From a virus (taxonomy: Duplodnaviria; Heunggongvirae; Uroviricota; Caudoviricetes), in the IMG/VR virus record IMGVR_UViG_3300025782_000009: a DNA stretch of 64,000 bases. The stretch is one strand, 5' to 3'. Shown here in pieces: positions 1-34,990 of this stretch (its first letter is position 1; each line of letters opens with the position of its first letter). Made by a program: the position numbers and the translations under genes. The notes below the pieces were generated by a model, which ran no database searches, was not told the origin of the DNA, and saw only the letters and a program-made list of their open reading frames with translations.

Positions 1-369
1 CCTGACTTTTCGTCCAAATCCAACCGCTAAATCCGCCGTATTTGACGTTTGTATGATCTTTTTACCCGGATATCTACCCAAAAACCAGCTCGGCAACAAA
101 TAACTCGCAAATTCCGACTTCGTATGACGCGGAGCCATATTAATAATCAGCCGTTTTATCTTCCCCGCAGCTATCTCTTCAAATTTTTTAGCAACCAACG
201 CATGATGCCTCCCAGGAATAAACCCCGGCCACATCATCTTTACATAATTCAAAAACTTTTCCTGAGCCTTCTCCCTCTCCATCGCCTCCTTATAAACTTG
301 GAAGTCGTAAAACAACTTCTCCTGCTCGTTTATAGGCAGTTTCGAGATCAACTCAGCTATATCACTCAC
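1..369 (-). CDS. terL: Terminase large subunit, N-terminal part; the CDS continues beyond the window start
   Basis: Hand translation of the reverse strand gives VSDIAELISKLPINEQEKLFYDFQVYKEAMEREKAQEKFLNYVKMMWPGFIPGRHHALVAKKFEEIAAGKIKRLIINMAPRHTKSEFASYLLPSWFLGRYPGKKIIQTSNTADLAVGFGRKVR. The FIPGRHH and INMAPRHTKS (Walker A-like) motifs are typical of the TerL ATPase domain. The GTG start at 369 overlaps the stop of the upstream gene (GTGA). Confidence 0.7.
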   Translation of the reverse strand, partial: MSDIAELISKLPINEQEKLFYDFQVYKEAMEREKAQEKFLNYVKMMWPGFIPGRHHALVAKKFEEIAAGKIKRLIINMAPRHTKSEFASYLLPSWFLGRYPGKKIIQTSNTADLAVGFGRKVR

Positions 370-710
370 TCAACGTTCCTAAAATTTATATAAACCGGGC
401 GAATACTCCTCTTACCCTTCACCTTCTTTAAAACGCCAAGCTCAATCAACCGATCAACCATATGGCTCGTACTCCCAATACTCTTAACCCCCCTCTGATT
501 ACATATATCTCTTATAGACGGGCTACATCCAAACCTCTTCCACCACTCATCCACCACTATAAATACTTCCCTTTGCGCCGGTGTCATATCTTCCTCCAAA
601 CATTTTTCAAAAGTCGTCCGCTTTCTAACCGCCATTTTGCGATTTATTAATAACTTCGTTTCCAAATCACTTCGTTTTATCTTCATATGTAATACTTTTG
701 GGGGGGACAA
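366..710 (-). CDS. LexA-N-terminal-like winged-helix DNA-binding protein with no peptidase domain. The true start is probably the internal ATG at 587 (72 aa), which follows a GGAGGA Shine-Dalgarno; the track start at 710 is a TTG
   Basis: TPAQREVFIVVDEWWKRFGCSPSIRDICNQRGVKSIGSTSHMVDRLIELGVLKKVKGKRSIRPVYI aligns in pattern with the LexA N-terminal DNA-binding domain (LTxRQxEVxxxI...PSxREIxxxxGxxSxxxxxxHLxxLxxKGxI). It sits between terS and terL. Confidence 0.5.
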   Translation of the reverse strand: MSPPKVLHMKIKRSDLETKLLINRKMAVRKRTTFEKCLEEDMTPAQREVFIVVDEWWKRFGCSPSIRDICNQRGVKSIGSTSHMVDRLIELGVLKKVKGKRSIRPVYINFRNVE

Positions 711-765: not shown

Positions 766-1470
766 TCAAAAAGGTTTCGATAAGGGGGTGTTTTCTGTGG
801 ATTGATCGCTTTCTGGGGGTAAACTTTTTGATGGGGGTAGGGTGTCTGGAATAGTATGTAGCTCACCAAGGGACTCCTGAACGCCTAAAGGGGTGTGTGG
901 GGTGCTCGATGCTGCTCCGGATAATTCGTCAAGGAGTAGGTCAACTTCTTTCACGTCAACGTCAATAGCTTGGCTCTTCATCATAGTCTTAAGCTCATCC
1001 ATTAGCTTAGATCTAGCGTCGGCGCTATTAGTAATGTGCGTTACTTCCTTACGTTCGGTAAACGCTGAGACTTCGGTTACTGTTCCGAGTACTTTGCTTG
1101 CGTTGATCTTTGCACTGTGTGAGGCATCAGGGTCAATGATGACCTGAACCAGTGATTGAATAACAAGCGCCCTTAATTGTGCAGGAGTACGATGTTTTTC
1201 CGCCTCTATTGCTAGCTTATAGGCTTCTAGTTCAGCTTGAATTCTGTTATCAGCTTTGAGCCTACTAGCATTGTCTCCTATTGTTTTGGGTGTTCCGTTA
1301 GTATCGTATGCCTGGCGGTAGGCATCTGCTCCCGTCATACCGAGAGCCAAACCCTTTGCAAATTCTTTCTGTTTTGTGGTTAGTTCACCGGGAACGTGAA
1401 GTATTTGATCTATTGGTATCTGGGTTAGACCTTCCTTTACCTGCTTTCTAGTTAGTTTCTTAATAGTCAT
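766..1470 (-). CDS. terS: Terminase small subunit
   Basis: LTTKQKEFAKGLALGMTGADAYRQAYDTNGTPKTIGDNASRLKADNRIQAELEAYK matches the Terminase_2 / P27-family TerS helix-turn-helix signature. It lies immediately upstream of terL in the same orientation. Confidence 0.75.
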   Translation of the reverse strand: MTIKKLTRKQVKEGLTQIPIDQILHVPGELTTKQKEFAKGLALGMTGADAYRQAYDTNGTPKTIGDNASRLKADNRIQAELEAYKLAIEAEKHRTPAQLRALVIQSLVQVIIDPDASHSAKINASKVLGTVTEVSAFTERKEVTHITNSADARSKLMDELKTMMKSQAIDVDVKEVDLLLDELSGAASSTPHTPLGVQESLGELHTIPDTLPPSKSLPPESDQSTENTPLSKPF

Positions 1471-1705
1471 ACTTACCTACTGTCTGAGTTAATGTATTAG
1501 ACGTTGATTATAGGGGAACATGCAGAGAAACTGCAACGCTTCGCTATGAATACAAGCGGGCGTTAATCAATTAGTACTTTCGTTCTACGGGTTTCCGATT
1601 AGAAAATAATTGGTTGAATAGTTGCGAAGTGAATAAAAGTATGCTAAGCTACAACGTATCGTAATTAAGCGAAACAAAGTAAACCAAACAACTAAAGGGA
1701 TTCAA

Positions 1706-1918
1706 ATGTTATTAAAAGCACGTTTCACAATAAATGTAGAAAAACTCAACGCTATCGTTGACCAGTACAACCAAACAAACGGCGTAGTTAAGTTTCTAAC
1801 TCAACCAGTATTTACTAGCAATAGCGAAGTAGTAGGCGAACAAAATGAGATTATGTTCTTTATCGGGTTTGTTGCAGGGCTCGGAGTACACGACCTTGAG
1901 CATGTAGCAAAGGCTTAA
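1706..1918 (+). CDS. Hypothetical early protein (70 aa)
   Basis: ORF with the upstream motif aaagggattcaaATG. It is the first gene of the plus-strand early operon. Confidence 0.5.
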   Translation: MLLKARFTINVEKLNAIVDQYNQTNGVVKFLTQPVFTSNSEVVGEQNEIMFFIGFVAGLGVHDLEHVAKA

Positions 1919-1919
1919 A

Positions 1920-1969
1920 GGTTAACTGACGAGACTTGAATAGTCGAAACCGCTCCGGCGGTCTTAACC
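1920..1969 (+). ncRNA. Hammerhead self-cleaving ribozyme, type I (copy 1)
   Basis: GGUUAA (stem I 5' strand), CUGACGA core, G, stem II GACU-ugaau-AGUC, GAA, A15.1, stem III CCGC-uccg-GCGG, U16.1, C17, then UUAACC (stem I 3' strand). All invariant core positions are present. The predicted cleavage site is after the GUC triplet, between 1963 and 1964. Confidence 0.7.
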
Positions 1970-1988
1970 AACTAAAAGGAATTTAAAA

Positions 1989-2303
1989 ATGATGGATTAT
2001 CTTTATATTGGCTCAACGCCACATGATGAGGATTGTGCCCAGGTAGGCTCAGAGGATTATGCCAACCGTGCTCGCGCAGAATGCCGGCTCTTTGCTTTGC
2101 AGATACTTAAACACTATCCCGAGCCCGAAAATGGTTATTTAAAAATAAAAGCTAACGCCCACGACTTTGGCACTTATTACGAAGTGGTAGCAGTTTATGA
2201 CGTAGAGGACGAAAAATCTACGAATTGGGCTTTTGATATTGAATCCGATACTTTGCAAGTACTGGCAAAGTGGGATGACGAACTACAACCACAAACCGCA
2301 TAA
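1989..2303 (+). CDS. Hypothetical early protein (104 aa)
   Basis: ORF preceded by the aaaaggaatttaaaaATG Shine-Dalgarno, 20 nt downstream of the hammerhead. Confidence 0.55.
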   Translation: MMDYLYIGSTPHDEDCAQVGSEDYANRARAECRLFALQILKHYPEPENGYLKIKANAHDFGTYYEVVAVYDVEDEKSTNWAFDIESDTLQVLAKWDDELQPQTA

Positions 2304-2314
2304 GGAATTACAAA

Positions 2315-2503
2315 ATGATAACACTATCAACCGAAACCCCTCAAAGCTACTTCACACCTAAACAAGCTCAATTTATTTGCTATCAAAACAATGCGGATGA
2401 GTTAGATGGTTGGACATACAAAGTAGAAGATGTAAACAACTCTAAAGGGTTATTAGTAATCCGTGTTTATGACGAAACCGGACACCCTTTGGGATATTTC
2501 TAA
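2315..2503 (+). CDS. Hypothetical early protein (62 aa)
   Basis: ORF with the coupling motif taaggaattacaaaATG. Confidence 0.5.
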   Translation: MITLSTETPQSYFTPKQAQFICYQNNADELDGWTYKVEDVNNSKGLLVIRVYDETGHPLGYF

Positions 2504-2555
2504 GGTCTACTGACGAGGCTTAATTAGCCGAAACCGCTCCCGGGCGGTATAGATC
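2504..2555 (+). ncRNA. Hammerhead self-cleaving ribozyme, type I (copy 2)
   Basis: GGUCUA, CUGACGA core, G, stem II GGCU-uaauu-AGCC, GAA, A, stem III CCGCUCCCGGGCGG, U, A17, then UAGAUC. Compensatory changes relative to copy 1 preserve stems I and II. The predicted cleavage site is after GUA, between 2549 and 2550. Confidence 0.65.
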
Positions 2556-2576
2556 AACTTAAAAGGAAATAATCAA

Positions 2577-2813
2577 ATGTATATACCAAAAAAAGCTTTT
2601 AAAGATATCAACGACCGATTAGAGCACGGCGATACTTATTTGGACTCAATCAAATACACCGCCTATTTTTACGGGTTCGAGCCCTCAGAGCTCCGCACGG
2701 CCTACGAGAAAAGAGCCTACCGCTCCGAGCTCCTTAGCAACACCGCAACCGCATTAGGAATGCTTGCAATTTTCCTTTGCCCGGTAATTTTCTATTTTGT
2801 TGCCAGGGGTTAA
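2577..2813 (+). CDS. Hypothetical early protein with C-terminal transmembrane segment (78 aa)
   Basis: ORF. The C-terminus ALGMLAIFLCPVIFYFVA is hydrophobic. An aaaaggaaataatcaaATG Shine-Dalgarno precedes it. Confidence 0.5.
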   Translation: MYIPKKAFKDINDRLEHGDTYLDSIKYTAYFYGFEPSELRTAYEKRAYRSELLSNTATALGMLAIFLCPVIFYFVARG

Positions 2814-17935: not shown

Positions 17936-18095
17936 CACACAACAAGCCGGCATGGATCTGAGAGATTGGTTTGCAGGGCAAGTATTACCTAAGTTGATTG
18001 GTACTGCACCTATAAATTTAGCCGCACAGTCAGCTTATCGTTGGGCAGATGAAATGATGAAAGCGAGATCAAATGAAGATAACAAACAAGTTTAA
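17904..18095 (+). CDS. Hypothetical protein (63 aa)
   Basis: ORF overlapping its neighbours. Confidence 0.4.
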   Translation: MQMKAFPNPNNTQQAGMDLRDWFAGQVLPKLIGTAPINLAAQSAYRWADEMMKARSNEDNKQV

Positions 18096-18969
18096 TCTGC
18101 CAGAGACAATCCTAAACGTACTGGCTCGCCCTACCTATTCCAAAGGCAAGGCTAATATTTCGGCTACTGAATTGATCAATTCACCCCGTATCGTGCAGCT
18201 CAAAAGGAAGCACTGGGACGAGGTGGAGGAGGATGCAAGCTCTATGGTCTGGTCACTGTTTGGCTCTGCCGTTCACAATATCCTGGAGCACGGCAAGCAG
18301 GACAATCATATCGTTGAGGAACGAGTGCACATTACCCACGAGGGATGGCATATCTCCGGCGCAGTAGATCTTCAAGAGGTCTATGAGGACGGAATTGTTA
18401 TCAATGACTACAAGACCACTACCGCCTGGGCTGTACAAAACGACAAGCCGGAATGGGAAGAGCAGCTCAACATATACGCCTGGCTAATCCAGAAAGCTAA
18501 GAATAAACCCGTCAAGGGCTTGCGTATCGTAGCCATAGTGCGCGATTGGAGTCAAAGAGATGCCGTGAATAGGGAAGGCTATCCGCAAGCGCCTATCGTG
18601 ATCCTAGACCAGCAGCTATGGCCTTTTGAGAAGGCTGAACTGTTCATTGAGGAAAGACTAAAGGCACACGGCGAAGCTTACTTTGAATCCGAGACAGACG
18701 GTCAGCTGCCAGAATGTTCACCAGACGATATGTGGGAGAAGCCAACAACCTATGCCGTGATCAAAGTCGGTGGCAAGAGAGCTAAGTCAGTCCATTCCAC
18801 AAAGAGGGACGCGGAAGCAGACTTGGATACAGCCGGCAAAGGATACGAGATCCAGGTCAGACCAGGAGAACGGACACGGTGCAGCAGCTACTGCCAGGTC
18901 AATCAATGGTGCAGCCAGTACCACAAATATTTACAAGAAAACGCAATCGTTGAAGAGGCAATTGAATGA
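18073..18969 (+). CDS. PD-(D/E)xK exonuclease, Cas4/RecB-like, with a C-terminal Cys cluster
   Basis: AVDLQEVYEDGIVINDYKTT carries the D..E.K catalytic core. The C-terminal cysteines are CSPDD ... CSSYCQVNQWC. It is paired with the downstream ERF annealing protein. Confidence 0.7.
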   Translation: MKITNKFNLPETILNVLARPTYSKGKANISATELINSPRIVQLKRKHWDEVEEDASSMVWSLFGSAVHNILEHGKQDNHIVEERVHITHEGWHISGAVDLQEVYEDGIVINDYKTTTAWAVQNDKPEWEEQLNIYAWLIQKAKNKPVKGLRIVAIVRDWSQRDAVNREGYPQAPIVILDQQLWPFEKAELFIEERLKAHGEAYFESETDGQLPECSPDDMWEKPTTYAVIKVGGKRAKSVHSTKRDAEADLDTAGKGYEIQVRPGERTRCSSYCQVNQWCSQYHKYLQENAIVEEAIE

Positions 18970-20162
18970 AAAAAGTAATTCACGAAGCCGATTCCAGACC
19001 CATAAAGATCTGGACGGATGACGTAGAAGAGGAGGCGCTGACCCAGCTTAAGAACCTGGCAAGGCTGCCCTTTATCAACCATCACGGCGTAGTCTGTATG
19101 CCTGATGTTCATGCGGGCAAAGGATCGACCGTGGGAACGGTTATAGCTACCGAGAAGGCGATTATTCCTGCTGCTGTAGGCGTTGACATTGGTTGCGGCA
19201 TGAACGCTGTTAGAACGTCTTTAAAGGCTTCTGACTTGCCTGAATCTTTAAAGGATGTCCGTACCCAGATTGAGCGTGATGTTCCGCTGGGCGCAGGTGG
19301 TCGGGTTCAAGCAGCAATTGATATTGATGATCGCATGAAGCGCTTGCCAAAAACATCATTTGATCTTTGCACAAGGCTAAATGAGATTATCGGTGACTAC
19401 TGGAAAAAGGCTGCCCCACAACTTGGGACGCTTGGATCAGGTAACCACTTCATTGAGCTTTGTATTGATGAGAACCAGGATGTATGGGTAATGCTTCATT
19501 CTGGATCTCGCGGAATAGGAAACATGATTGGCTCTTACTACATTGAAAAAGCCAAGAAAACAATGGAGAAGTTCTTTATCCATCTGCCTGATTCTGACCT
19601 AGCCTATTTGCCAGAGGATACCGATGACTTTAATGAATACATGGATGCCGTGAGTTGGGCGCAGAGCTATGCATTGGAGAACCGCAAGCTAATGATGGAG
19701 ATTGTTTTGGATGCGCTCAGAAGGCATATTTCAAAAGAATTCACGATTACCCAAGAGGCGATCAATTGCCACCATAACTATGTAGAGAAGGAGAATCACT
19801 TTGGAAGAAACCTCTGGGTTACTCGTAAAGGAGCTATTCGTGCGAGATCCGGAGACCTTGGAATTATTCCAGGTTCGATGGGTCAAAAATCATATATTGT
19901 CCGTGGCAAGGGTGAGTTGCAATCCTATTGTTCTTGTTCGCACGGGGCAGGACGCAGTATGTCCAGAGCTGAAGCTAAAAGGCGCTTCAGTATTGATGAC
20001 CTCATTAAACAAACCGAAGGAGTAGAGTGCCGTAAGGATGCGGCAGTGATAGATGAAATCCCAGCTAGTTATAAAAACATAGATCAGGTAATGGCTAACC
20101 AAACAGATCTAGTCGAAGTAGTTCACACCCTAAAACAAGTAATGTGCGTCAAAGGCGCTTAA
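18966..20162 (+). CDS. rtcB: RtcB-family RNA 3'-phosphate ligase
   Basis: Conserved metal-site motifs GSGNHF, HSGSRG, NCHHNY and CSHGAGR are present. The length (398 aa) matches bacterial RtcB. Confidence 0.9.
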   Translation: MKKVIHEADSRPIKIWTDDVEEEALTQLKNLARLPFINHHGVVCMPDVHAGKGSTVGTVIATEKAIIPAAVGVDIGCGMNAVRTSLKASDLPESLKDVRTQIERDVPLGAGGRVQAAIDIDDRMKRLPKTSFDLCTRLNEIIGDYWKKAAPQLGTLGSGNHFIELCIDENQDVWVMLHSGSRGIGNMIGSYYIEKAKKTMEKFFIHLPDSDLAYLPEDTDDFNEYMDAVSWAQSYALENRKLMMEIVLDALRRHISKEFTITQEAINCHHNYVEKENHFGRNLWVTRKGAIRARSGDLGIIPGSMGQKSYIVRGKGELQSYCSCSHGAGRSMSRAEAKRRFSIDDLIKQTEGVECRKDAAVIDEIPASYKNIDQVMANQTDLVEVVHTLKQVMCVKGA

Positions 20163-21085
20163 AGGAAACACAAATGAGTTTATTTTTTATTGCAATTTTT
20201 TTATTAGCCGCCCCAATTGGCATTGGCTATGGTTTGTATATTTTTTCTTTGGCAGACGTAAGGGCTAGGAACTCAATGAGAGACAAACAAGTTCCTGAAC
20301 CAACGTTTAAGCCAACACTGCCAGCCGTTACAGGATTAGTCCTAATGCTTCTGTACATTAGTCTTGAATCCTACGTTATTGTTCCTGCCGGTCATATCGG
20401 CATTCAGGTGACGTTTGGCACGGTCAACCAGGAAACACTGGGCGAAGGCTTGCACCTGGTCAATCCATTGTCTAGCGTACAGAACCTGGACGTTCGTTTG
20501 GTATCTGCCAAGCTTGCGGGATCGGCCGCTGGGACTAAAGATCTACAGCAAGTACACACCGATATCGTTGTGAACTACCGTATCTCTGGCGACCGAGCAG
20601 CCCATATCTACAAGGAGTTTGGTTTAGATCTTCAGGATAAAGTGGTCATGCCTTTTGTCAACGAATCGTTCAAAGCCATTACCGCGCACTACACCAGCGA
20701 GGAGTTGATTACTAAGCGGGACGAGGTATCCGCAGGAATTAAGCAGGAGCTGTCAGACAAGCTGGGAAAGTACAACATTATTGTGAGCGATATCTCTTTG
20801 GTGAATTTCGGTTTCTCTGCCGAATACCAAAAGGCTATCGAGGCAAAGGTAATAGCAACGCAAAGCAAACTCCAGGCGGAGCAAGACCTAGCCAGGATTG
20901 AGGTAGAGGCTAAGCAGACTATTGCCAAGGCAGAGGGTCATGCAAAGGCTATCCAGATTGAGACGGCTGCAATCAACTCACAGGGAGGACAGTCATACGT
21001 TCAACTCAAAGCCATTGAGAAATGGAACGGTACTTTGCCTAGCACCATTGCCGGGGGCGCGACACCGTTCGTGAATCTGAAATGA
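20144..21085 (+). CDS. SPFH/Band-7 (prohibitin, HflK/C-like) membrane protein. The likely start is the MSLFF... ATG at 20174
   Basis: N-terminal transmembrane segment FFIAIFLLAAPIGIGYGLYIF, then an SPFH domain (NYRISGDRAAHIYKEFG ... FGFSAEYQKAIEAKVIATQ ... coiled coil). Confidence 0.8.
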   Translation: MRQRRLKETQMSLFFIAIFLLAAPIGIGYGLYIFSLADVRARNSMRDKQVPEPTFKPTLPAVTGLVLMLLYISLESYVIVPAGHIGIQVTFGTVNQETLGEGLHLVNPLSSVQNLDVRLVSAKLAGSAAGTKDLQQVHTDIVVNYRISGDRAAHIYKEFGLDLQDKVVMPFVNESFKAITAHYTSEELITKRDEVSAGIKQELSDKLGKYNIIVSDISLVNFGFSAEYQKAIEAKVIATQSKLQAEQDLARIEVEAKQTIAKAEGHAKAIQIETAAINSQGGQSYVQLKAIEKWNGTLPSTIAGGATPFVNLK

Positions 21086-21802: not shown

Positions 21803-21993
21803 AGCTTGCGGTAGGTGAGGACGAGTGGTATCCAGTATTTACTTTATGCGAAGCAGATTCTTTTGTATGGAAATATCACTTGTCTGAGTTTGTCGAAATT
21901 ACAGAGGAAGAATATAAGGATTACAAAGAAACTATGAACAAATTTGAAGAATGGCAATCAAAAATTAATAACCTAGAAAGGGTTAACAAATGA
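21799..21993 (+). CDS. Hypothetical protein (64 aa)
   Basis: ORF with ATGA coupling. Confidence 0.45.
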   Translation: MKLAVGEDEWYPVFTLCEADSFVWKYHLSEFVEITEEEYKDYKETMNKFEEWQSKINNLERVNK

Positions 21994-22712
21994 CAGTATT
22001 TAAAAAACTACAGAAGGCGCGGTCAGAAATAGCCCATAAGCCTCTCAAGAAATCCGGCAAGAACAAGTTTGCAGGATACGAGTATTTTGAGCTGGGAGAC
22101 TTCATCCCTACTGCTCACGATATATTTGACCAACTCGGATTGTGCGGAGTATTCAATATCAGCCTTGAGACTGCTACGCTTTGCATTCACGACACCGAGA
22201 CGGGCGAAGTGGTTCAATTCTCCTCGCCGACCGTTCTAGCAGAGAATGCCAAGGGACAGGCCATCCAGTCTATGGGTAGTACTCACACCTATTTCCGCCG
22301 TTACCTTTGGTTGATGGCGCTGGAGCTAACTGAGCACGATACAGTCGATGCAGCAGAGCCAACAGAAAAGAAACCAGAACCTAAGCCAAAAGTTGACGAG
22401 CAAATTGTTAAGTCATCTGTAGATCCGAAAACTGGCGAGATCAAACCACCCGCCAATATCGAGGGCAAAGGCGGGGAGTGGAACATCAAGATCAATGCTA
22501 AATCTACTGCAACAGCAGAAGACTGGGCAAATATTGTCTATGACGCAGCCATAATCTGCCTAGATACGGCTAAGAGCTTAGATGATGTGATGACCATATT
22601 CAGGGTCAACCGTCCTATCTTTGATCGTCTACGCGCCGATTCTGAGCCAGCCTACTCTAAATTAATGAACGAGTTTAAAAAGTACAAGGAGTCTTTCAAT
22701 GCCATCCCCTAA
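21990..22712 (+). CDS. ERF-family single-strand annealing protein (recombinase)
   Basis: KNKFAGYEYFELGDFIPTAHDIF and GSTHTYFRRYLWLMALEL match the P22 Erf blocks (NSFGKYKYRSCEDIL / TSSYARKYCLNGLFGI). Confidence 0.75.
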   Translation: MTVFKKLQKARSEIAHKPLKKSGKNKFAGYEYFELGDFIPTAHDIFDQLGLCGVFNISLETATLCIHDTETGEVVQFSSPTVLAENAKGQAIQSMGSTHTYFRRYLWLMALELTEHDTVDAAEPTEKKPEPKPKVDEQIVKSSVDPKTGEIKPPANIEGKGGEWNIKINAKSTATAEDWANIVYDAAIICLDTAKSLDDVMTIFRVNRPIFDRLRADSEPAYSKLMNEFKKYKESFNAIP

Positions 22713-23674: not shown

Positions 23675-24049
23675 GTGCACTGGTATTTAAAGGCAAGATG
23701 TTCCGGTGCACCCATTGTGGTATCAAGTGGGCTTCTATCGAACCGGCAGAGGCTCACATCTGTGAAGAACGAAATGCAAAGCAAGAACAAGAAACCACCA
23801 ACCGCATCAGAGAAGAAACACATCCAGAGGGTAAAGGAGATGCCATGTATCATATGCGGCGCATCCTCACCGAGCGATTGCCACGAGATTAAACAGGGTC
23901 AGTGGTTTACTTCTATCCCGCTATGCCGGGATTGCCACATGGGCAGCCACAACGGCATACATGGTCGTAAAGCTATATGGAATGTAAAGCGCCTAGACGA
24001 ACTAGACGCATTAGCCCTCACTATCGAAAAGCTTATAACTGAGCCATAG
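23675..24049 (+). CDS. Small HNH-type endonuclease-like protein. The real start may be internal (about 23844); it overlaps the alternative ORF 23665..23892
   Basis: CIICGASSPSDCHEIKQGQWFTSIPLCRDCHMGSHNG has the pattern CxxCG ... DCHEI ... LCxxCH. Confidence 0.45.
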   Translation: MHWYLKARCSGAPIVVSSGLLSNRQRLTSVKNEMQSKNKKPPTASEKKHIQRVKEMPCIICGASSPSDCHEIKQGQWFTSIPLCRDCHMGSHNGIHGRKAIWNVKRLDELDALALTIEKLITEP

Positions 24050-27000
24050 CACGAAGCTTCTTAATATTTATATTCTTTAAGATCAGCTCTTCTTGTTTGT
24101 GTAGATTCTCAATCTGCTTTTCTTTCTTGTCCGGATCCATGTTCGGCTTGTTGCTGATAATGGCTATAGCGTTTTGGATGTTAGATAGATTCTTAGCTAT
24201 CTTATCTATATCGCTATGCATACCAACCCGCATCTGGTGCTCTTTTGACTTCATGTAATCAGCCGCCTCGCTTGGGGTGCGCTTCTTAATATCATTGAAC
24301 GTAGCAGATGCTTTGTCTACTTCATCCTTCAGAATATAGAAGTCACGTTTCAAGCCGGTCTGGTTTTCCTTGGATATAAATCCACTAGATCCTGGGACAG
24401 AGGCAAGCACATCATGCCAGCCAATCGTAGGTCTTTCTACATTTGGATCTGTGTGCAGGATTGGATTGGTCAGCATAAGCGTTAGACCGCCAACAGAACC
24501 AAACATACCGCGGATGATATGGTCAGCGTTGATAGGCGCAATCAACCCGGTCTTACCAAGTACCTTACCAAGCTCAGATGTTGAGTCATTGAACTGCCTG
24601 GATACATCCTCCTTCAGCATGAACGGATTGATCAGGTTGCGGTTCTGGAAAAAGTCATAGTTCAGTGCAACTTCAACTGCTGGCTTGATAGCCTGGGGAA
24701 CAGGAGTAGGAGCCATCAAAGATGAAGTCAAAGCTGATGCCATTGAATCTCTAAACTTACGCCCGTCTTCTGTAGCGTTGTTGGTCATCAATAAATACAG
24801 GTGCTCTGTAATGATCTTTGGAATGGTAAAGACATCGTTCCTGAGTGGAATGCTGAGACCGCCAGATCCAGGGATCATTAGCAGTCTATCCCGTACAGTC
24901 GTTGGCTTCTTTAGGTAGTCATCATCGTCACCGTTCATCATTGCGTACAGCAAAGATAAAGCCATAACAGATCCGGTAGTCATAGCAAGGGTTTGTAATC
25001 CTGCCTTCCTCTCGGTCGGGGATATGCCCTCGCCGGTAATGGTTTTGAATGCTACGTTTTGAACAGCAAGGTAGGCATTGAAGAACGGTATAACTTGGCT
25101 AACTACGCGCAGGGTGGTAGATGTACCCCTCCTACGCACGTTAAACACCTCAAAGGCTTTCTCAATAGCCTCACCGCGGGTCAGTCCTGCCGATACAGAT
25201 GCCTCGTATACAGCTTGTCTAACAGCGTTATCTGATGCCATAGAGATATGCTTGAGCATACCTTTGACCTTGCCCCATCCGCCTGGTGGTGGTTTAACGC
25301 CGGCATAAACCTCAGCATCTCTACGCGCCAGATCAGATGTAAAGTCTGTATATCCTACAGCTCTGTACTTCTTAAGCTCCTCATGGGTTGTACTGGTACG
25401 TCTAAGCGTCTTAACAAACTCCTTGGCTGCAAGCGCAGGGATTCTCAGGGCGTACTGTGGAGACAAGCCGGACGTAAAGATAGCGGAGAACGCATCTTGT
25501 GGTACTTGGCTGACCGCAAAGAGCGGGTTCATTACAACAGATTCTCTAAGGATGTTTGCAAACTTGGAGAAGAACTTAACAGTAGGAACAGATACCGCCT
25601 GGATACCGGCAAAGGCATCTACAAAGAGCGGATCCTTCATGTCGTAAAACTCTTCCTTACCATCTCTCCAAATGCGAACCACGTTAGCATTCTTAATGGG
25701 ATGAGGAATCTTCTTAGCTATACCAAGGCTTTCCAAGTCCTTGCTCATAGCTGTATCAATCATCGCCTTAGCCTGGGAGTTTCTGATGGAACGGTTATAT
25801 GAATACTCGATCCACTTCGCCATGTTGTCCACGATATTGGCAACTGGTCTTTCAGATCCGGTCATCTTGAACTCTCTGGCTTTAACCATCAAGCCGGATA
25901 GATAGTTCTTATCTCCGCCTTTAGCCTCTTCCTCCTCGAACTCGCGCTGGAACGGAACGTAGTCAATGTTTGACATCATCTGCTCTGCGTACTCTTCACT
26001 CCACAGACCAGACTCAACCAGAGCGTCCTTAGCGTTGTTTCTCATGCCCTGCCAGATATCCACAGTATCTTGCAGCTCAGGCATAGACTTAAAGAAATCA
26101 AGACCTGTAGCAATCTGCTCGTCCGATAGATGAATAAGCTTTGGCTTTTGCTTGGCAAGATTCTCAAACCTAGAGATAGCAGCCTTCACTTCTGCCCTCT
26201 GCGCCTTGGTATCAGGATCATTCCCGGTCAGGCTGTTCAGTAGTTCATTGAGAGCCTCGATCTCTTCAGGAGCGCTGGCAATAGATGCGTTGAAGTCTTT
26301 CAGCGACTGGGTACGTCTAGCCTCAAACGCCATGTGCGTAACAAGCTCTGCCTCCTGGTACGTCATGTTGTACTTATTGGCAAACTCACTAATTGATTTA
26401 ATAAGTTCTTTTAAGTTGTATCTATCCTTTACAACCTCCCACTTCTGAACATCATCATCGTATCCCAGCTTTCCATCAAGCAGTGCACCATTGGCAACAA
26501 TATCAGCACCAACAGCTTGGCTGGTACTGATATTAAGCCGGTTTCTAACCTTATCACTCATCTCGCCATCCGCTTGCATGATGCCGCGTTTGATGTTGTT
26601 ATTGAATGCAGAGTCACTGCTAAATATCCAGGTCTGTATCTTGTCAGAGAACTTGGTAGCAGCTTTTTTGGCATCTTCTATAGCCATGCCAGGATTGTCT
26701 ATAGCGTTATCCCAGTAGCTCTTAAGGTTCTCGTAGAAACTCTTTGGTTGCTCTTCTACTTCACGACCCATATCCCTTAATGAATCAAGTGCATCTCTGC
26801 CCGCGCCAGTGGCTTGACTTGGCTGGATTGGAGATTCCTCTGCGGTCATCTTTGGATTTGATTTCAGCCTTCCCGGAGGGGCTTGAGGAGTAGTTGGAAC
26901 ACCTAATGTGTACCCTTTCTTTTCCAGATCTTTAGCAATCTCTAGCGCTGGATTTTCAAACATATCAGTAGATATTCTGATTAATCTATCCAATGCTGTT

Positions 27001-30000
27001 TCGTATTCTGGAGATAAATTTAAAACCTTACGGACAAACTCCATCAATTTATCAAGAGCAGTCTTATTGCCAACTTTAATTCCAGCCAAATATTTCTGCA
27101 TTGCAGGATCGGTCAATCCTTGCGTAATAAACTCAGCATAGAAATCACCCTCTACACCTGTTGATTTTTTAAAGGCATAATTAATTGAGAATTCATCTCT
27201 AATATATTTGCCTTCTTTCTTGTCCTTTCTCCATTGTTTATGAACAAGCTTTCTTAAATCATCTAATTCTTTTACGAGAGGATTATCTGTGCCAAGGAAT
27301 TTAATTTCCGCCAAAGAAATAAGATGTATAAATTCATGCGCTAAGACTTCAAAAGTAGAACCCTTCTCGCCATTAATTTCCATTATGAAATTTATTTTCC
27401 CAAGACCTGAAGGACTAAATACTCTACCCAAAGATGAACGTTTTTTATTCATTACATATTTGGTAGAAAAAGTCATTGGTACGCCGCGGCGATCAAACTC
27501 TTGTACTTTGCGAAGAATGTGTTCAGCTATTCCTTTGTGATATGAGTCATGCGCTATATCAACTAAAATCTGCGCTGCCTCAACAATATTTTTACCATTT
27601 AACCTTTTAAGCAATTCTGCTTTGCTCAACTGAGGCTTTTGGAAAAAAGTATCTTTTGTTGGCGGCTCATCTGGAGGAGTAAATAAATCTTTCTCTCCTT
27701 CAAATGCCTTTTTAAACACCTCATCCAGCGAGCGTTTGGGAACTTCCCCGAACATATCTGTGTCTGTTCTGTTGTGCTCTTCAAGCGCGGCATTAGCTAA
27801 GTTATTTAATCCTTCGGTAATCTTCTTACCCGACCTGCCAGAGTCTGCAAACATTTGAAGAATTCTTTGGGTATAAGGATTAGTCCCTATATCCATTTGC
27901 TTAGCCATATCTTCAAGCGGTATATTTCTACGCCTTGCATTAACCGCTGCTTCTGCGGCTTGGGTTACATAAGGACGGATATCGTACTCTCCAGCGCCAT
28001 CAAGCTGCGCCATCTTAGGAGCAACGGTTCCAAGTGAATTTAATACAAGTCTTGACTCAGCATCCCTGGTTGGCCCATACAGATTAATTAACTGCTCATT
28101 GCCATATGCCTTCCAAAACACAGCATTCATCAAACGATCTTCTGCTTTCTTTGAAGGCTGACCAAACAAGTCCTTTAAATCAGGATGCTCTGATACCGGC
28201 ATCGCATTAACAAAGTCCCGCAATGAATCAATATGCGGATCACCGTTATCATAAAATTTCAAAGAATTAATATCTATTCGGTTGGCATCTTGTTTGGCTG
28301 AATCAATAGCTGACAAACCAGAGATACCAGATACGTTTGATATATCACCAATGTTAGGCGTAATAAAAGACTTAGGCATCACCCGCACCAACACGGGCTG
28401 CTTCATGTCCGCAATAGTCTTGGGATCAATGCCGTGGGCTGCATCGTTAACCAACTCTTCCTTGTACTTGCCAGCTGTTCCGCGCTGATAAGCCTCTTGT
28501 ATACCTGCTACACGACCATTACCCGCAACCGGGCGAATAGCAGAGACAGATAAATCCTGGTACTCAGCATTCTTTGTGCCATCATGGGAATGAGATGGTA
28601 GCAATTCATGTGCATCAACAACTGCATACCTAACTGGAATCTTTGTTCCGTCAGATGCTGTGGTCATCTCATAGTTTCCAAGCTGGTTTTCGTTTAGCTT
28701 CTCATCGGTCATAACCACTGGAGCGCCAGAACCAAAACTGCGAGATATGCTTAAATCGTTATATCTTGGATTAGCTGCAACACCTTGCATTTGCTGAATA
28801 GATGCATCTGTAGATCTGTCTCTATTTTGAAAGACCGTACTGGATGCGTCTGGCAACCCTTGGTGGTAATTCTCAAAGTGCTGAGACAAGTCTGGATTTG
28901 CACCTGGCGCAACATTTCCCGGTGGAGTAGTAGGAGGATTGACCGGAGGCGTGGCAGGTGGAGTCTCAGGAGCAGCTGGAGGAGCGGGCGGAGTAGTACC
29001 CGGCTTTTGTGCGGCTGCTGGCTTCTGAAGCAAACCCATACCACCGGCAGTACCAATAGCACCAATACCCGCCTGGGCAGCAGTGCGTCCAAGATTCTCT
29101 GTTAACTCTGCATTAGGATCTACCTGTTGCTGAGCTACGTTCTGAGCAAGCTGTCCACCAACTTCCTCAATCTCTTCACTGGGTAGCTCACCAAGGGCGA
29201 GACCTGCTGCATTACGCAACCTACCTGCTTTACCTGCTTTACCTGCCAATGCCTCAGCAAACCTGTGTCCGCCTGGTAGATTCTGAGCGCCAAGGGATAT
29301 AGCTGCACCTGCAACACCAGTAGCCCTAGCGTACTTCAATGCTCTTTCTTTAGCCTCGTCCTCTGGTACGCCATCAGCAATCATCTTGTCATAGGTTGCT
29401 TTGTATACCTGTGCACCTACGTCAGAGCCTTGCTGTAAAGCACCAGTACCGATAGCAGCCCGTGCGCCAGACTTAACGGCAGCAGCTTGAGCAGCTTCAG
29501 CAGCAGCCTTCTCGGCAGCAGTACCTACGGCTTTCCTAGCGGCAGCTCTAGATGCGGCAACAGCAGGAGATAGTTCAGGAGCAGCAATAGCAGCAATAAT
29601 AGCCGGCAATTGTTCAGGTAACTGCTGGGCAATAAAGTTAAGACCAAGACCAAATGGGTCTTTGATTGTCTCTAATGCTTCACGACCAAGGGCGCTGAGC
29701 TGTCCACTCTTTTCCGCTTCTTTGACCTTCTCTTCTTTGAGTTGTTCCCTAGCTTTTAAACCAGGAGACTTCATCTCTTCGCCGTACTGTTGCAGCTTAT
29801 TACCAATAGCCATTACGCCGGTATCGGAGAAATCTCCAGTAGCCAGACCATACATCTGCGGTACAAACTTAGCTGCACCACCAACGCCAGATACTAATCC
29901 AGCACCAATGTCCGTTGCAGCCTGACCAAACGTCCTGCTTGTATCAGGAGCTTTGGGTGGCGGCGGAGCGGGTAGATCAGAAATGTCTACTGGTCTAGGC

Positions 30001-30035
30001 TTGGTAGGATCCGGTAAATCGCTAATATCAATCAT
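24033..30035 (-). CDS. Giant virion-associated or ejection protein (2000 aa) with a zincin-like HExxH motif, Ala-rich and Pro-rich N-terminal segments
   Basis: A continuous 6-kb ORF at the end of the late operon. FEVLAHEFIHLISLAE contains HExxH. Features include an N-terminal DISDLP repeat, an Ala/Gly-rich helix region and a PPAPPAAPETPPATPPVNPPTTPP linker. Confidence 0.8.
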   Translation of the reverse strand: MIDISDLPDPTKPRPVDISDLPAPPPPKAPDTSRTFGQAATDIGAGLVSGVGGAAKFVPQMYGLATGDFSDTGVMAIGNKLQQYGEEMKSPGLKAREQLKEEKVKEAEKSGQLSALGREALETIKDPFGLGLNFIAQQLPEQLPAIIAAIAAPELSPAVAASRAAARKAVGTAAEKAAAEAAQAAAVKSGARAAIGTGALQQGSDVGAQVYKATYDKMIADGVPEDEAKERALKYARATGVAGAAISLGAQNLPGGHRFAEALAGKAGKAGRLRNAAGLALGELPSEEIEEVGGQLAQNVAQQQVDPNAELTENLGRTAAQAGIGAIGTAGGMGLLQKPAAAQKPGTTPPAPPAAPETPPATPPVNPPTTPPGNVAPGANPDLSQHFENYHQGLPDASSTVFQNRDRSTDASIQQMQGVAANPRYNDLSISRSFGSGAPVVMTDEKLNENQLGNYEMTTASDGTKIPVRYAVVDAHELLPSHSHDGTKNAEYQDLSVSAIRPVAGNGRVAGIQEAYQRGTAGKYKEELVNDAAHGIDPKTIADMKQPVLVRVMPKSFITPNIGDISNVSGISGLSAIDSAKQDANRIDINSLKFYDNGDPHIDSLRDFVNAMPVSEHPDLKDLFGQPSKKAEDRLMNAVFWKAYGNEQLINLYGPTRDAESRLVLNSLGTVAPKMAQLDGAGEYDIRPYVTQAAEAAVNARRRNIPLEDMAKQMDIGTNPYTQRILQMFADSGRSGKKITEGLNNLANAALEEHNRTDTDMFGEVPKRSLDEVFKKAFEGEKDLFTPPDEPPTKDTFFQKPQLSKAELLKRLNGKNIVEAAQILVDIAHDSYHKGIAEHILRKVQEFDRRGVPMTFSTKYVMNKKRSSLGRVFSPSGLGKINFIMEINGEKGSTFEVLAHEFIHLISLAEIKFLGTDNPLVKELDDLRKLVHKQWRKDKKEGKYIRDEFSINYAFKKSTGVEGDFYAEFITQGLTDPAMQKYLAGIKVGNKTALDKLMEFVRKVLNLSPEYETALDRLIRISTDMFENPALEIAKDLEKKGYTLGVPTTPQAPPGRLKSNPKMTAEESPIQPSQATGAGRDALDSLRDMGREVEEQPKSFYENLKSYWDNAIDNPGMAIEDAKKAATKFSDKIQTWIFSSDSAFNNNIKRGIMQADGEMSDKVRNRLNISTSQAVGADIVANGALLDGKLGYDDDVQKWEVVKDRYNLKELIKSISEFANKYNMTYQEAELVTHMAFEARRTQSLKDFNASIASAPEEIEALNELLNSLTGNDPDTKAQRAEVKAAISRFENLAKQKPKLIHLSDEQIATGLDFFKSMPELQDTVDIWQGMRNNAKDALVESGLWSEEYAEQMMSNIDYVPFQREFEEEEAKGGDKNYLSGLMVKAREFKMTGSERPVANIVDNMAKWIEYSYNRSIRNSQAKAMIDTAMSKDLESLGIAKKIPHPIKNANVVRIWRDGKEEFYDMKDPLFVDAFAGIQAVSVPTVKFFSKFANILRESVVMNPLFAVSQVPQDAFSAIFTSGLSPQYALRIPALAAKEFVKTLRRTSTTHEELKKYRAVGYTDFTSDLARRDAEVYAGVKPPPGGWGKVKGMLKHISMASDNAVRQAVYEASVSAGLTRGEAIEKAFEVFNVRRRGTSTTLRVVSQVIPFFNAYLAVQNVAFKTITGEGISPTERKAGLQTLAMTTGSVMALSLLYAMMNGDDDDYLKKPTTVRDRLLMIPGSGGLSIPLRNDVFTIPKIITEHLYLLMTNNATEDGRKFRDSMASALTSSLMAPTPVPQAIKPAVEVALNYDFFQNRNLINPFMLKEDVSRQFNDSTSELGKVLGKTGLIAPINADHIIRGMFGSVGGLTLMLTNPILHTDPNVERPTIGWHDVLASVPGSSGFISKENQTGLKRDFYILKDEVDKASATFNDIKKRTPSEAADYMKSKEHQMRVGMHSDIDKIAKNLSNIQNAIAIISNKPNMDPDKKEKQIENLHKQEELILKNINIKKLRAMAQL

Positions 30036-34989: not shown

Positions 34990-34990
34990 A

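What the first reader, a model, noticed from the sequence alone, without database searches (positions are those of the whole stretch)
1920..1969. Canonical type I hammerhead ribozyme immediately after the stop codon of an early phage gene
All invariant hammerhead nucleotides are present in the right order. Stem I is GGUUAA/UUAACC, the core is CUGACGA, stem II is GACU-loop-AGUC, then GAA, stem III is A-CCGC-uccg-GCGG-U, and the cleavage triplet is GUC. The element starts 2 nt after a TAA stop and ends 20 nt before the next Shine-Dalgarno. Self-cleavage would therefore cut the polycistronic early mRNA between two ORFs, leaving a 5'-OH on the downstream message. Hammerhead ribozymes are rare in phage genomes, and this one sits in a lytic early operon.
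Basis: seen in the sequence. Interest (0 to 1): 0.85.

Follow-up and report, generated by a model that had tools for sequence, protein, structure and literature searches.

The report
Two hammerhead ribozymes between phage genes
The flagged 50 bases are a genuine self-cleaving hammerhead RNA motif, one of two between small genes at the start of a phage operon; they most likely cut the long messenger RNA into gene-sized pieces, an arrangement known in phages since 2011, so this is a clean but ordinary example.

Summary
Window 1920-1969 (+) is a complete type I hammerhead with every invariant core base, and cleavage is predicted between 1963 and 1964. Its stems I and II carry compensatory changes. 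Chance does not explain this: 300 random 64-kb sequences gave 0 hits to the same descriptor.

Both elements belong to a large phage-borne subfamily. 143 distinct relatives are ~100% paired, and 12 of 15 pairs show changes on both sides. Stem I is exactly 6 bp and is bracketed by conserved A residues. The element sits between an upstream stop codon and a downstream Shine-Dalgarno/ATG. Rfam thresholds miss the whole subfamily (Hammerhead_1 23.4 bits against a cut-off of 34).

Clustered hammerheads flanking phage genes, including an active one in phage PaP3, were described by Perreault et al. 2011. The claim that they are rare in phages is therefore wrong.

The most likely role is host-independent processing or "insulation" of cistrons. 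The elements also coincide with mosaic recombination junctions. The phage encodes RtcB ligase, but RtcB and hammerheads are not co-distributed among relatives, so a circular-RNA reading is unlikely. This is a new member of a known kind, of modest interest.

The parts
1920..1969 (+). Hammerhead 1 (type I). Stem I 1920-1925/1964-1969; core CUGACGA 1926-1932; stem II hairpin 1933-1945; GAA 1946-1948; stem III hairpin 1949-1962; C17 at 1963. Predicted scissile bond 1963|1964.
   Evidence: Sequence; descriptor; MFE fold equals the hammerhead; model R1 75.7 bits; orthologous copies in L016/L017/L018/L019.
2504..2555 (+). Stem I 2504-2509/2550-2555; core CUGACGA 2510-2516; stem II hairpin 2517-2529; GAA 2530-2532; stem III hairpin 2533-2548; A17 at 2549. 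Predicted scissile bond 2549|2550.
   Evidence: R1 72.5 bits. Relative to HH1 it has compensatory changes in stem I (U-A to C-G, A-U to U-A) and stem II (A-U to G-C).
1919..1919 (+). Conserved unpaired A just 5' of stem I of HH1. The equivalent for HH2 is A2503, the last base of the TAA stop.
   Evidence: A at -1 in 20/21 and in 78/79 independent family members.
1970..1988 (+). Leader of the downstream cistron: conserved AA(C) directly after stem I (1970-1972), Shine-Dalgarno AAGGA 1976-1980, then ATG at 1989. After cleavage the 5'-OH leader would be 1964-1988 (25 nt).
   Evidence: A at +1 in 79/79 and A at +2 in 60/79. The ATG lies 10-23 nt after the motif in 19/24 family members.
2556..2576 (+). 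Leader after HH2: AAC 2556-2558, Shine-Dalgarno AAGGA 2563-2567, ATG at 2577.
1706..1918 (+). ORF1 (70 aa, unknown function), the first gene of the + strand operon. Its stop TAA 1916-1918 abuts HH1.
   Evidence: no Pfam or PHROG hit.
1989..2503 (+). ORF2 (1989-2303, 104 aa) and ORF3 (2315-2503, 62 aa), the two cistrons enclosed by the ribozymes. The predicted inter-ribozyme RNA is 1964-2549 (586 nt), with a 5'-OH and a 2',3'-cyclic phosphate.
   Evidence: ORF2 homologues occur in 44 viral contigs. No informative family hit.
2577..2813 (+). ORF4 (78 aa), the first cistron downstream of HH2. A near-identical relative (L016) carries different genes here.

Best explanation
Both elements are functional, cis-acting type I hammerhead ribozymes in the transcript of a + strand operon of small phage genes.

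As the RNA is made, each motif folds into a three-way junction. Stem I is exactly 6 bp and is capped by an A/A juxtaposition that probably docks loop II. Each then cleaves itself after C1963 (HH1) and A2549 (HH2).

Cleavage splits the polycistronic RNA into three pieces:
- ORF1 plus the ribozyme body, ending in a 2',3'-cyclic phosphate.
- A 586-nt ORF2-ORF3 RNA.
- An RNA starting at ORF4.
Each downstream piece begins with a 5'-OH and a short, standardised leader: 6 nt of stem I, then AAC, the Shine-Dalgarno and the ATG.

The effect is host-RNase-independent processing that uncouples the stability and translation of neighbouring cistrons. This resembles the RNase III sites in the T7 early mRNA, and it insulates each ribosome-binding site from whatever lies upstream, as the synthetic RiboJ insulator does. 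That insulation would suit genes that are swapped as cassettes, and the ribozymes do sit at mosaic junctions.

Shown here: motif, covariation, family, placement and junctions. Inferred: cleavage itself and its consequences for expression.
For: Motif completeness and non-randomness.

Covariation:
- 22 distinct copies are 100% paired, with 9/15 pairs changed on both sides and a covariation score of 0.538 against 0.120 shuffled (0/500 shuffles reach it). Slid controls pair at about 24-38%.
- 143 distinct copies are ~100% paired, with 12/15 pairs changed on both sides and a score of 0.733 against 0.153 shuffled.
- The pairs that never vary are G10.1-C11.1, A15.1-U16.1 and C15.2-G16.2. Position 17 is C, A or U and never G, as the class requires.

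Unbiased stem I tests:
- The pattern specified neither stem I nor the 3' half of stem III, yet all 17 matches were complete hammerheads.
- Of 83 further pattern matches that fix only U1.1 in stem I, 79 have exactly 6 contiguous pairs (31 distinct sequences), with A at -1 in 78/79 and A at +1 in 79/79. Shifted controls give 0-3 pairs.

Placement: always on the coding strand. Where an upstream ORF was found (21 of 24 copies), its stop lies within -24 to +4 nt of the motif start. The next ATG lies 10-23 nt after the motif in 19/24.

Orthologues at 96% and 81% protein identity keep both ribozymes.

Mosaic junctions: the window and L016 are identical through the 3' edge of HH2 and unrelated after it.

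Related phages: 16/80 loci carry such ribozymes in the same divergent operon.

Literature:
- Tandem prophage hammerheads cleave in vitro and in vivo, and mRNA processing was proposed for them (PMC3088659).
- The PaP3 intergenic hammerhead is active and is detected by my model at 30.5 bits.
- RiboJ-type hammerhead insulators cleave with 84-94% efficiency in E. coli, and uncleaved mRNA decays faster (PMC7536230).
Against: - No cleavage data exist for this sequence.
- Rfam scores are below gathering thresholds.
- Stem I is A/U-rich and marginal in context. The hammerhead fold is 0-1.8 kcal/mol above the MFE, and stem I pair probability ranges from 0.02 to 0.71 depending on the flanks. An upstream hairpin (1892-1923) competes with the 5' strand of HH1.
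- A ribosome terminating at the adjacent stop codon would cover the 5' strand of stem I, so cleavage must fit between ribosome passages (inference).
- The elements are dispensable. Most relatives lack them: 64/80 loci around the regulator-like gene and 39/44 ORF2 loci.
- The biological purpose of bacterial and phage hammerheads is still called unresolved in the 2019 review PMC6765202.
Confidence: 0.72

Rival explanations
1. RtcB-coupled RNA circle or religation. The two ribozymes release a 586-nt RNA (1964-2549) with 5'-OH and 2',3'-cyclic phosphate ends. The phage's own RtcB ligase (18966-20162) circularises it or religates it to other pieces, as in retrozymes and viroid-like RNAs.
For: - The phage encodes a full-length RtcB (phrog_1075, E 9e-155; 74% identity to the RtcB of Bordetella phage PHB04).
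- RtcB's substrates are exactly the ends a hammerhead produces (established biochemistry; used for that purpose in cyPhyRNA-seq, PMC8782182).
- Two ribozymes flank a short segment.
Against: - RtcB lies 17 kb away in a replication/recombination block.
- No hammerhead lies within 2 kb of any of 80 RtcB homologues.
- No contig is shared between the RtcB list and the hammerhead contigs.
- Four long hammerhead-bearing relatives (L380, L407, L422, L440; 53-67 kb contigs) are absent from the RtcB list. The one related contig known to carry RtcB (L428 = L116) has no hammerhead in the equivalent region.
- RtcB is widespread in phages: 710 GenBank phage records hold a match.
- The two stem I sequences are not interchangeable: the 5' strand of HH2 against the 3' strand of HH1 gives 4/6 pairs (sequence).
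- Perreault et al. looked for circular or spliced products from tandem prophage hammerheads and detected none.
- Caveat: the RtcB and hammerhead lists were truncated at 80 and 118 rows.
Confidence: 0.05
2. Active but essentially selfish or neutral module. The ribozyme travels with gene cassettes, or promotes recombination at the DNA level through its roughly 50-nt conserved sequence. It confers no expression benefit, and cleavage is tolerated rather than used.
For: - Patchy distribution among close relatives.
- Location at mosaic breakpoints, and rearranged gene order between the window and L018 with the ribozymes at the joints.
- Many copies per contig.
- Perreault et al. note that self-cleaving ribozymes are common in selfish elements.
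Against: - Extremely constrained placement relative to the stop codon and the Shine-Dalgarno/ATG, and always on the coding strand.
- Strict conservation of catalytic bases and of the extra-core A/A and loop features across 143 distinct copies. This indicates selection on RNA catalysis in that exact mRNA context rather than on DNA similarity alone.
- This rival is not exclusive of the main explanation.
Confidence: 0.15
3. Non-catalytic look-alike. The region is an intergenic structured element, such as an mRNA-stabilising hairpin pair, a protein-binding site or a terminator, that merely resembles a hammerhead.
For: - Rfam scores are below threshold.
- The folding z-score of the isolated motif is modest, -1.88.
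- Perreault et al. list some hammerhead-like RNAs that were inactive.
Against: - All invariant catalytic bases are present in both copies, and they stay invariant across the aligned family copies while every helix covaries.
- Position 17 is never G.
- No U-tract follows stem III, and the terminator scan finds nothing here.
- The inactive examples in the literature carried core deviations. These two have none.
Confidence: 0.04
4. Chance occurrence of the motif in 64 kb.
For: The core-only pattern is expected about twice per window by chance.
Against: - With the helices required, 0 hits in 300 random windows.
- Two copies on the same strand in equivalent intergenic positions.
- Conservation with compensatory changes in orthologous loci.
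Confidence: 0.005

Closest known systems
Clustered hammerhead ribozymes flanking prophage genes (Perreault et al. 2011, PMC3088659; e.g. the triple arrangement around ardA in Agrobacterium tumefaciens, and Clostridium scindens and Azorhizobium caulinodans)
   Same: Several hammerheads within one operon of small phage genes, flanking single genes or short gene blocks whose identity varies. They were proposed to process long phage transcripts into gene-length mRNAs. Cleavage was shown in vitro and, for A. tumefaciens, in vivo in E. coli.
   Different: Those examples mix types I, II and III and sit in prophages of cultured bacteria. Here both are type I, of one tightly defined subfamily, in an uncultivated podovirus-like phage. 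Whether these exact sequences are in that paper's dataset could not be checked.
Pseudomonas phage PaP3 (Bruynoghevirus) intergenic hammerhead
   Same: A type I hammerhead between small leftward ORFs (orf67/orf66) of a podophage. My family model detects it (30.5 bits, L260 44031-44118). It is reported as active (PMC3088659 Fig. S6). The window's virion protein has distant matches to many Pseudomonas phage records, including Bruynoghevirus.
   Different: PaP3's copy has a core variation, longer stem II and III inserts and an imperfect outer stem I pair. It scores far lower than the window copies (30.5 against 72-76 bits).
Rfam Hammerhead_1 (RF00163) and RAGATH-1-hammerhead (RF03152)
   Same: Same catalytic core and type I topology. 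Both models align end to end with HH1.
   Different: Scores of 23.4 and 26.3 bits are below the gathering cut-offs of 34 and 56.3. No hammerhead in the 16 family-bearing loci scanned reaches any Rfam hammerhead threshold. The upstream hairpin that the RAGATH-1 model aligns (1893-1917) is not conserved in L018, where a different gene precedes the ribozyme.
RNase III processing sites in the phage T7 early polycistronic mRNA (own knowledge)
   Same: Works like it: intercistronic cuts give separate early mRNAs with structured 3' ends.
   Different: T7 depends on a host protein enzyme and leaves a 5'-phosphate and a 3'-OH. Here the RNA cuts itself and leaves a 5'-OH and a 2',3'-cyclic phosphate.
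Synthetic ribozyme insulators (RiboJ family)
   Same: A hammerhead placed just upstream of a ribosome-binding site that removes upstream context and normalises the 5'-UTR. Cleavage efficiencies in E. coli are 0.84-0.94, and uncleaved mRNA decays faster (PMC7536230).
   Different: RiboJ consists of a hammerhead ribozyme plus an added 23-nt hairpin. The natural elements leave only 6 nt plus AAC before the Shine-Dalgarno.
Retrozymes and viroid-like circular RNAs with paired hammerheads (PMC4918200, PMC7761336; found in the literature search, not read)
   Same: Two hammerheads delimit a short RNA whose ends are substrates for an RtcB-type ligase.
   Different: There is no repeat structure, the two stem I sequences differ, the segment encodes ordinary phage proteins on a dsDNA genome, and RtcB is not co-distributed with the ribozymes.

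Membership tests
Hammerhead ribozyme (class) | Three helices around a junction in the order stem I - CUGANGA - stem II - GAA - stem III - H17 - stem I (type I: stem I open) | tested here: met
   Sequence; descriptor; MFE fold of the 50-mer.
Hammerhead ribozyme (class) | Invariant core bases C3 U4 G5 A6 G8 A9 G12 A13 A14, plus the A15.1-U16.1 and G10.1-C11.1 pairs | tested here: met
   All present in both copies. Invariant in 22 aligned copies. The three pairs never vary in 143 copies.
Hammerhead ribozyme (class) | Cleavage-site nucleotide 17 is any base except G | tested here: met
   C1963 and A2549. In the family, C 78, A 4, U 1, G 0.
Hammerhead ribozyme (class) | Helices supported by compensatory substitutions | tested here: met
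   Stem I was also tested on pattern hits that did not specify it.
Hammerhead ribozyme (class) | Tertiary contact between stem I and loop II that gives fast cleavage at physiological Mg2+ | tested here: inconclusive
   No loop II-flank pseudoknot: self and cross complementarity are equal at about 4.5 nt. However, stem I is fixed at exactly 6 bp, the bracketing A(-1)/A(+1) are conserved in 78-79 of 79 copies, and loop II starts with a U that is invariant in the 22 aligned copies. These suggest a contact but do not prove one.
Hammerhead ribozyme (class) | Mg2+-dependent site-specific self-cleavage giving 2',3'-cyclic phosphate and 5'-OH ends | not testable with these tools
   Needs in vitro transcription or end-specific RNA-seq.
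Rfam Hammerhead_1 (RF00163) | Score at or above the curated gathering threshold (34 bits) | tested here: not met
   23.4 bits and no hit at gathering. The same holds for 16 related loci. This is a limit of the model and threshold, not of the motif.
Rfam RAGATH-1-hammerhead (RF03152) | Gathering score of 56.3 bits, including the conserved 5' hairpin | tested here: not met
   26.3 bits. The aligned 5' hairpin lies in the coding sequence of ORF1 and is not conserved in L018.
Clustered phage/prophage hammerheads (Perreault 2011) | Two or more hammerheads on the coding strand flanking genes in a phage operon | tested here: met
   HH1 and HH2 flank ORF2-ORF3. Related contigs carry 2-7 copies.
Retrozyme / viroid-like circular RNA | Paired ribozymes plus ligation to a circle, with co-occurrence or dependence on an RtcB-type ligase | tested here: not met
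   RtcB and hammerheads are not co-distributed. Circle formation itself is not testable here.

The most novel reading that the evidence does not exclude
The phage uses its two hammerheads together with its own RtcB ligase to make a 586-nt circular (or religated) messenger RNA encoding ORF2 and ORF3. That would be a ribozyme-plus-ligase RNA-circle pathway in a dsDNA phage. My co-occurrence data argue against an obligatory coupling but cannot exclude it for this particular phage.
Probability: 0.05. Interest if true: 0.8.

Novelty: new member of a known kind. Interest (0 to 1): 0.35.

Why it matters
The element is a textbook-quality natural hammerhead, and it has a partner 580 nt away. It is therefore a convenient experimental handle on an open question: what are the very numerous phage and bacterial hammerheads for?

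Three things from this work are useful beyond the single locus:
1. A sharply defined type I subfamily: 6-bp stem I closed by A/A, 4-bp stem II with a loop of about 5 nt that begins with U, and wedged between a stop codon and the next Shine-Dalgarno. It is abundant in uncultivated phages and present in isolated ones (Flavobacterium phage elemoA, PaP3). It is invisible at Rfam gathering thresholds, so it goes unannotated or is overwritten by spurious CDS calls.
2. Its edges coincide with mosaic gene-cassette junctions. This fits a "natural insulator" role that would make cassettes portable.
3. The tempting link to the phage's RtcB ligase is not supported by distribution.

Tried and rejected
- Rfam at gathering thresholds on the window, on 16 hammerhead-bearing loci and on 39 ORF2-homologue loci: no ribozyme family hits. 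This makes Rfam uninformative for this subfamily.
- blastn of 1500-2600 against GenBank phages: no match.
- blastn of the 60-nt motif: the hits in Erwinia phages lie inside an annotated CDS on the opposite strand, and the model rejected the representative I fetched (vB_EamM-M7). The Flavobacterium phage hit was real.
- Other hammerhead topologies: my type II and type III descriptors found none in the window or in L001-L059.
- Additional divergent copies in the window: none above 13 bits with filters off.
- Loop II pseudoknot with flanking sequence: no signal.
- The weak DUF2815-RNA match (18.2 bits) reflects only the stem III hairpin plus the A-rich ribosome-binding site. Rejected.
- Terminator reading: no U-tract and no scan hit.
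- RtcB coupling: tested three ways and not supported.
- Function of the flanked genes: no informative Pfam or PHROG hits. No link to anti-restriction genes such as ardA could be made.
- tRNA association: no tRNAs in the window.

Full report
**1. The observation.**
Window 1920-1969 (+) reads GGTTAA-CTGACGA-GACT TGAAT AGTC-GAA-ACCGC TCCG GCGGT-C-TTAACC. This is the full type I hammerhead order: stem I 5' strand, C3-A9, stem II hairpin with G10.1-C11.1, G12-A14, stem III hairpin closed by A15.1-U16.1, C17, stem I 3' strand. The isolated 50-mer has the hammerhead secondary structure as its minimum-energy fold (-14.3 kcal/mol; z = -1.88 against shuffles).

Two details need correcting. The TAA stop of the upstream ORF is 1916-1918, so only A1919 separates it from the motif. 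The Shine-Dalgarno AAGGA lies at 1976-1980, 7 nt after the motif, and it is the ATG at 1989 that is 20 nt downstream.

**2. A second copy, and chance.**
A core-only pattern search returned a second site. My full descriptor confirmed it at 2504-2555 (+): GGTCTA-CTGACGA-GGCT TAATT AGCC-GAA-ACCGC TCCCGG GCGGT-A-TAGATC. It starts directly after the TAA (2501-2503) of ORF 2315-2503 and ends 21 nt before the ATG of ORF 2577-2813.

Relative to the first copy it has compensatory changes in stem I (U-A to C-G, A-U to U-A) and in stem II (A-U to G-C).

The core-only pattern is expected about twice per window by chance. With the helices required, 300 random first-order Markov 64-kb sequences gave 0 hits at the observed stringency and 8 at a loose one. 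No type II or III hammerheads were found. With a family model and filters off, no further copy in the window scores above 13 bits.

**3. Rfam.**
At gathering thresholds nothing is reported in the window. On 1880-2010, Hammerhead_1 aligns end to end at 23.4 bits (cut-off 34; E 7e-4 for 131 nt, which by simple scaling is about 0.3-0.4 for the whole window). RAGATH-1-hammerhead scores 26.3 bits (cut-off 56.3).

The 5' hairpin that the RAGATH-1 model uses lies inside ORF1. It is absent in relatives where another gene precedes the ribozyme. No hammerhead in the 16 related loci scanned reaches any Rfam hammerhead threshold either.

**4. What the window is.**
It is a phage with no close GenBank relative. 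Its genes include:
- primase, helicase and DNA methyltransferase;
- ParB-like and Erf-like proteins, an exonuclease and an RtcB ligase;
- virion and tail proteins distantly similar to those of DSL-LC04, HTVC023P, Pag-Yong1 and many Pseudomonas podophages.

The + strand operon that holds the ribozymes starts after a 235-nt divergent intergenic region (1471-1705). It consists of small ORFs with no family assignment. "Early" is a reasonable inference. "Lytic" was not established.

**5. Related sequences.**
A DNA pattern that fixed only the core, parts of stem II and the 5' half of stem III found 15 IMG/VR stretches. All 17 matches turned out to be complete hammerheads with a perfect 6-bp stem I.

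Homologues of ORF 1989-2303 were found in 44 viral contigs. The closest (96% and 81% protein identity; L016/L017, L018/L019) keep both ribozymes, and one at 54% (L032) has one.

Covariation results:
- An alignment of 22 distinct copies is 100% paired, with 9 of 15 pairs changed on both sides. The covariation score is 0.538 against 0.120 in shuffles (0/500), and slid controls pair at about 24-38%.
- Because those sequences were partly selected for pairing, I repeated the test on 83 new pattern matches in which stem I was unspecified apart from U1.1. Of these, 79 have exactly six contiguous pairs (31 different sequences), bounded by A at -1 (78/79) and A at +1 (79/79). Shifting the partner strand gives 0-3 pairs.
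- A model-based alignment of 143 distinct copies is ~100% paired, with 12 of 15 pairs changed on both sides. The only invariant pairs are G10.1-C11.1, A15.1-U16.1 and C15.2-G16.2. This alignment is fitted to the model, so it leans towards the structure.
- Position 17 is C, A or U, never G.

This is the signature of selection for catalysis.

**6. Anatomy of the subfamily.**
Stem I is exactly 6 bp and closed by an A/A juxtaposition. Stem II is 4 bp, with a loop of about 5 nt whose first base is a U (invariant in the 22 aligned copies). Stem III is 5-9 bp. I found no loop II-flank pseudoknot. I therefore infer a loop II-to-stem I-end tertiary contact, but I did not show it.

The element always lies on the coding strand. 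Where an upstream ORF was found (21 of 24 copies), its stop is within -24 to +4 nt of the motif start. That stop sometimes uses the TGA of the CUGA core or a TAA/TAG in loop II. The next ATG with a Shine-Dalgarno follows 10-23 nt after the motif in 19 of 24 cases.

In context the hammerhead fold is 0-1.8 kcal/mol above the MFE, and stem I is marginal. That is compatible with rapid product release after cleavage. It also means that flanking sequence and ribosomes can interfere.

**7. Distribution.**
- The model found 158 copies in 90 loci, with arrays of 4-7 copies a few hundred nt apart.
- It found 27 copies in 80 bacterial and archaeal genome stretches, including five within 2.5 kb of a Nitrosopumilaceae contig.
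- Among isolated phages, it detects an unannotated copy in Flavobacterium phage elemoA_7-9A. That copy lies between two same-strand genes, under a probably spurious opposite-strand CDS.
- It also detects the PaP3 hammerhead between orf67 and orf66.
- In the window's own phage group, defined by homologues of the regulator-like gene 766-1470, 16 of 80 loci carry such ribozymes, always in the divergent operon.

**8. Known biology.**
Perreault et al. 2011 (PMC3088659) reported hundreds of bacterial hammerheads near prophage genes. They described multiple hammerheads flanking single genes or short blocks whose identities vary. Cleavage of tandem arrangements was shown in vitro and in vivo. They proposed that long phage transcripts are processed into gene-length mRNAs. 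They detected no circular or spliced products. They also showed activity of a PaP3 intergenic hammerhead.

The 2019 review PMC6765202 still lists the purpose as unresolved. Hence hammerheads are not rare in phages, and this locus is a new member of a known kind.

**9. Mechanism proposed.**
- Shown: two intact ribozymes bracket ORF2-ORF3.
- Inferred: co-transcriptional self-cleavage yields ORF1 RNA ending in the ribozyme body with a 2',3'-cyclic phosphate, a 586-nt ORF2-ORF3 RNA (1964-2549), and an RNA beginning at 2550. Each downstream piece starts with a 5'-OH and a standard 25-27-nt leader.
- From established knowledge, a 5'-OH is a poor substrate for 5'-monophosphate-dependent RNase E or J entry, and a structured 3' end slows 3' exonucleases. 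The cistrons would thus become independent in stability and translation. This is functionally like T7's RNase III sites, but without a host enzyme.
- It also resembles the synthetic RiboJ insulators, which normalise 5'-UTRs with 84-94% cleavage in E. coli and whose uncleaved mRNAs decay faster (PMC7536230).

**10. Mosaic junctions.**
The window and its 95%-identical relative L016 are colinear through the last base of HH2 and then unrelated. L016 has an extra 45-aa ORF and a divergent ORF4.

Relative to L018 the gene order is rotated: ORF1-HH-ORF2-ORF3-HH-ORF4 in the window against ORF1-ORF3-HH-ORF2-HH-ORF4 in L018. The ribozymes lie at the joints, and each keeps its own stem I sequence and its downstream gene.

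This fits a portable "ribozyme + RBS + gene" cassette logic. It could equally reflect recombination at the conserved 50-nt sequence.

**11. The RtcB lead.**
RtcB (18966-20162) seals exactly the ends that hammerheads make, and two ribozymes could release a circularisable RNA. The evidence against a coupling is as follows:
- RtcB is 17 kb away.
- None of 80 RtcB homologue loci has a hammerhead within 2 kb.
- No contig is shared between the RtcB and hammerhead lists.
- Four long hammerhead-positive relatives are not in the RtcB list.
- The one related contig that has RtcB lacks a ribozyme in the equivalent region.
- RtcB is common in phages generally (710 GenBank phage records hold a match).
- The two stem I sequences are not interchangeable (4/6 pairs).

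The lists were truncated, so this is evidence against an obligatory coupling, not proof of absence. I give the circle reading about 5%.

**12. Verdict.**
- Observation: confirmed, and extended by a second copy and a well-defined family.
- Interpretation: right about identity and likely cleavage, wrong about rarity.
- Novelty: new member of a known kind.
- Interest: modest (0.35). It rests mainly on the clean paired arrangement, the junction association, and the fact that standard annotation misses the whole subfamily.

Noticed in passing
window 18966-20162 (+), with 18073-18969, 20144-21085 and 21990-22712: The phage encodes a full-length RtcB RNA ligase (phrog_1075, E 9e-155; 74% identity to the RtcB of Bordetella phage PHB04). 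It sits in a block with an exonuclease-like gene, a phrog_200 'lipoprotein' gene and an Erf-like annealing protein gene. Its substrate ends match hammerhead products, but its distribution is independent of the ribozymes.
   Followed up: yes
window 2555-2580, compared with L016 3567-3600 and L018 3372-3400: Homology between the window and a 95%-identical relative stops exactly at the 3' edge of hammerhead 2; different genes follow. Gene order around the two ribozymes is rotated in L018. The ribozymes mark mosaic junctions.
   Followed up: partly
L261 2491-2558 (+) = GenBank MT497017.1, Flavobacterium phage vB_FspP_elemoA_7-9A: An unannotated hammerhead of the same subfamily (51.5 bits) lies between two same-strand genes. 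The record instead annotates a 35-aa hypothetical CDS on the opposite strand across it (elemo79Aphanotate_43), which is probably spurious.
   Followed up: partly
L273 7489-10038; L297 6079-8012; L338 10524-13304; L300 5403-7716; L187 112-2531: Arrays of 4-7 hammerheads spaced a few hundred nt apart, roughly one per small gene, in IMG/VR viral contigs and in a Nitrosopumilaceae archaeal MAG contig. The window's pair is a small example of a much denser arrangement elsewhere.
   Followed up: no
all hammerhead loci (e.g. L001-L019, L032) and window 1920-1969, 2504-2555: No member of this subfamily in the loci scanned reaches an Rfam hammerhead gathering threshold, so routine annotation would miss it. 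The custom model R1, built from 22 sequences, separates true hits (above 40 bits) from background (below 14 bits) cleanly.
   Followed up: yes
L007 4547-4668 (-): A Betaproteobacteria-1 RNA (RF02932, 72.7 bits) lies about 800 nt from a hammerhead in a viral contig. Together with the RtcB similarity to Bordetella and Burkholderia phages, this hints at betaproteobacterial hosts for part of the family.
   Followed up: no
window 1892-1923 (+): A hairpin formed by the end of ORF1 (GACCUUGAGC...GCUUAAAGGUU) competes with the 5' strand of stem I of hammerhead 1 in MFE predictions. It is what the RAGATH-1 model aligned as its 5' hairpin. It is not conserved in L018, so it is probably incidental.
   Followed up: partly
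window 1680-1705, 1970-1988, 2556-2576: The leaders of ORF1, ORF2 and ORF4 share an AACT(T)AAA(A)GG motif before the ATG. ORF1 has no ribozyme in front of it, so this is a common ribosome-binding region of the operon and not part of the ribozyme.
   Followed up: no
window 24033-30035 (-): A 2000-aa ORF with only 'unknown function' PHROG matches, followed by three ORFs of about 800-860 aa (30035-37396), of which the two scanned had no family match. This is a large uncharacterised virion-associated block.
   Followed up: no
window 366-710 (-) and 766-1470 (-): The genes divergent from the ribozyme operon are a LexA-type winged-helix DNA-binding protein and a protein whose only hit is a weak match to the N-terminal region of small terminase (phrog_51, E 5e-7). 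Both look more like regulators than packaging proteins.
   Followed up: no
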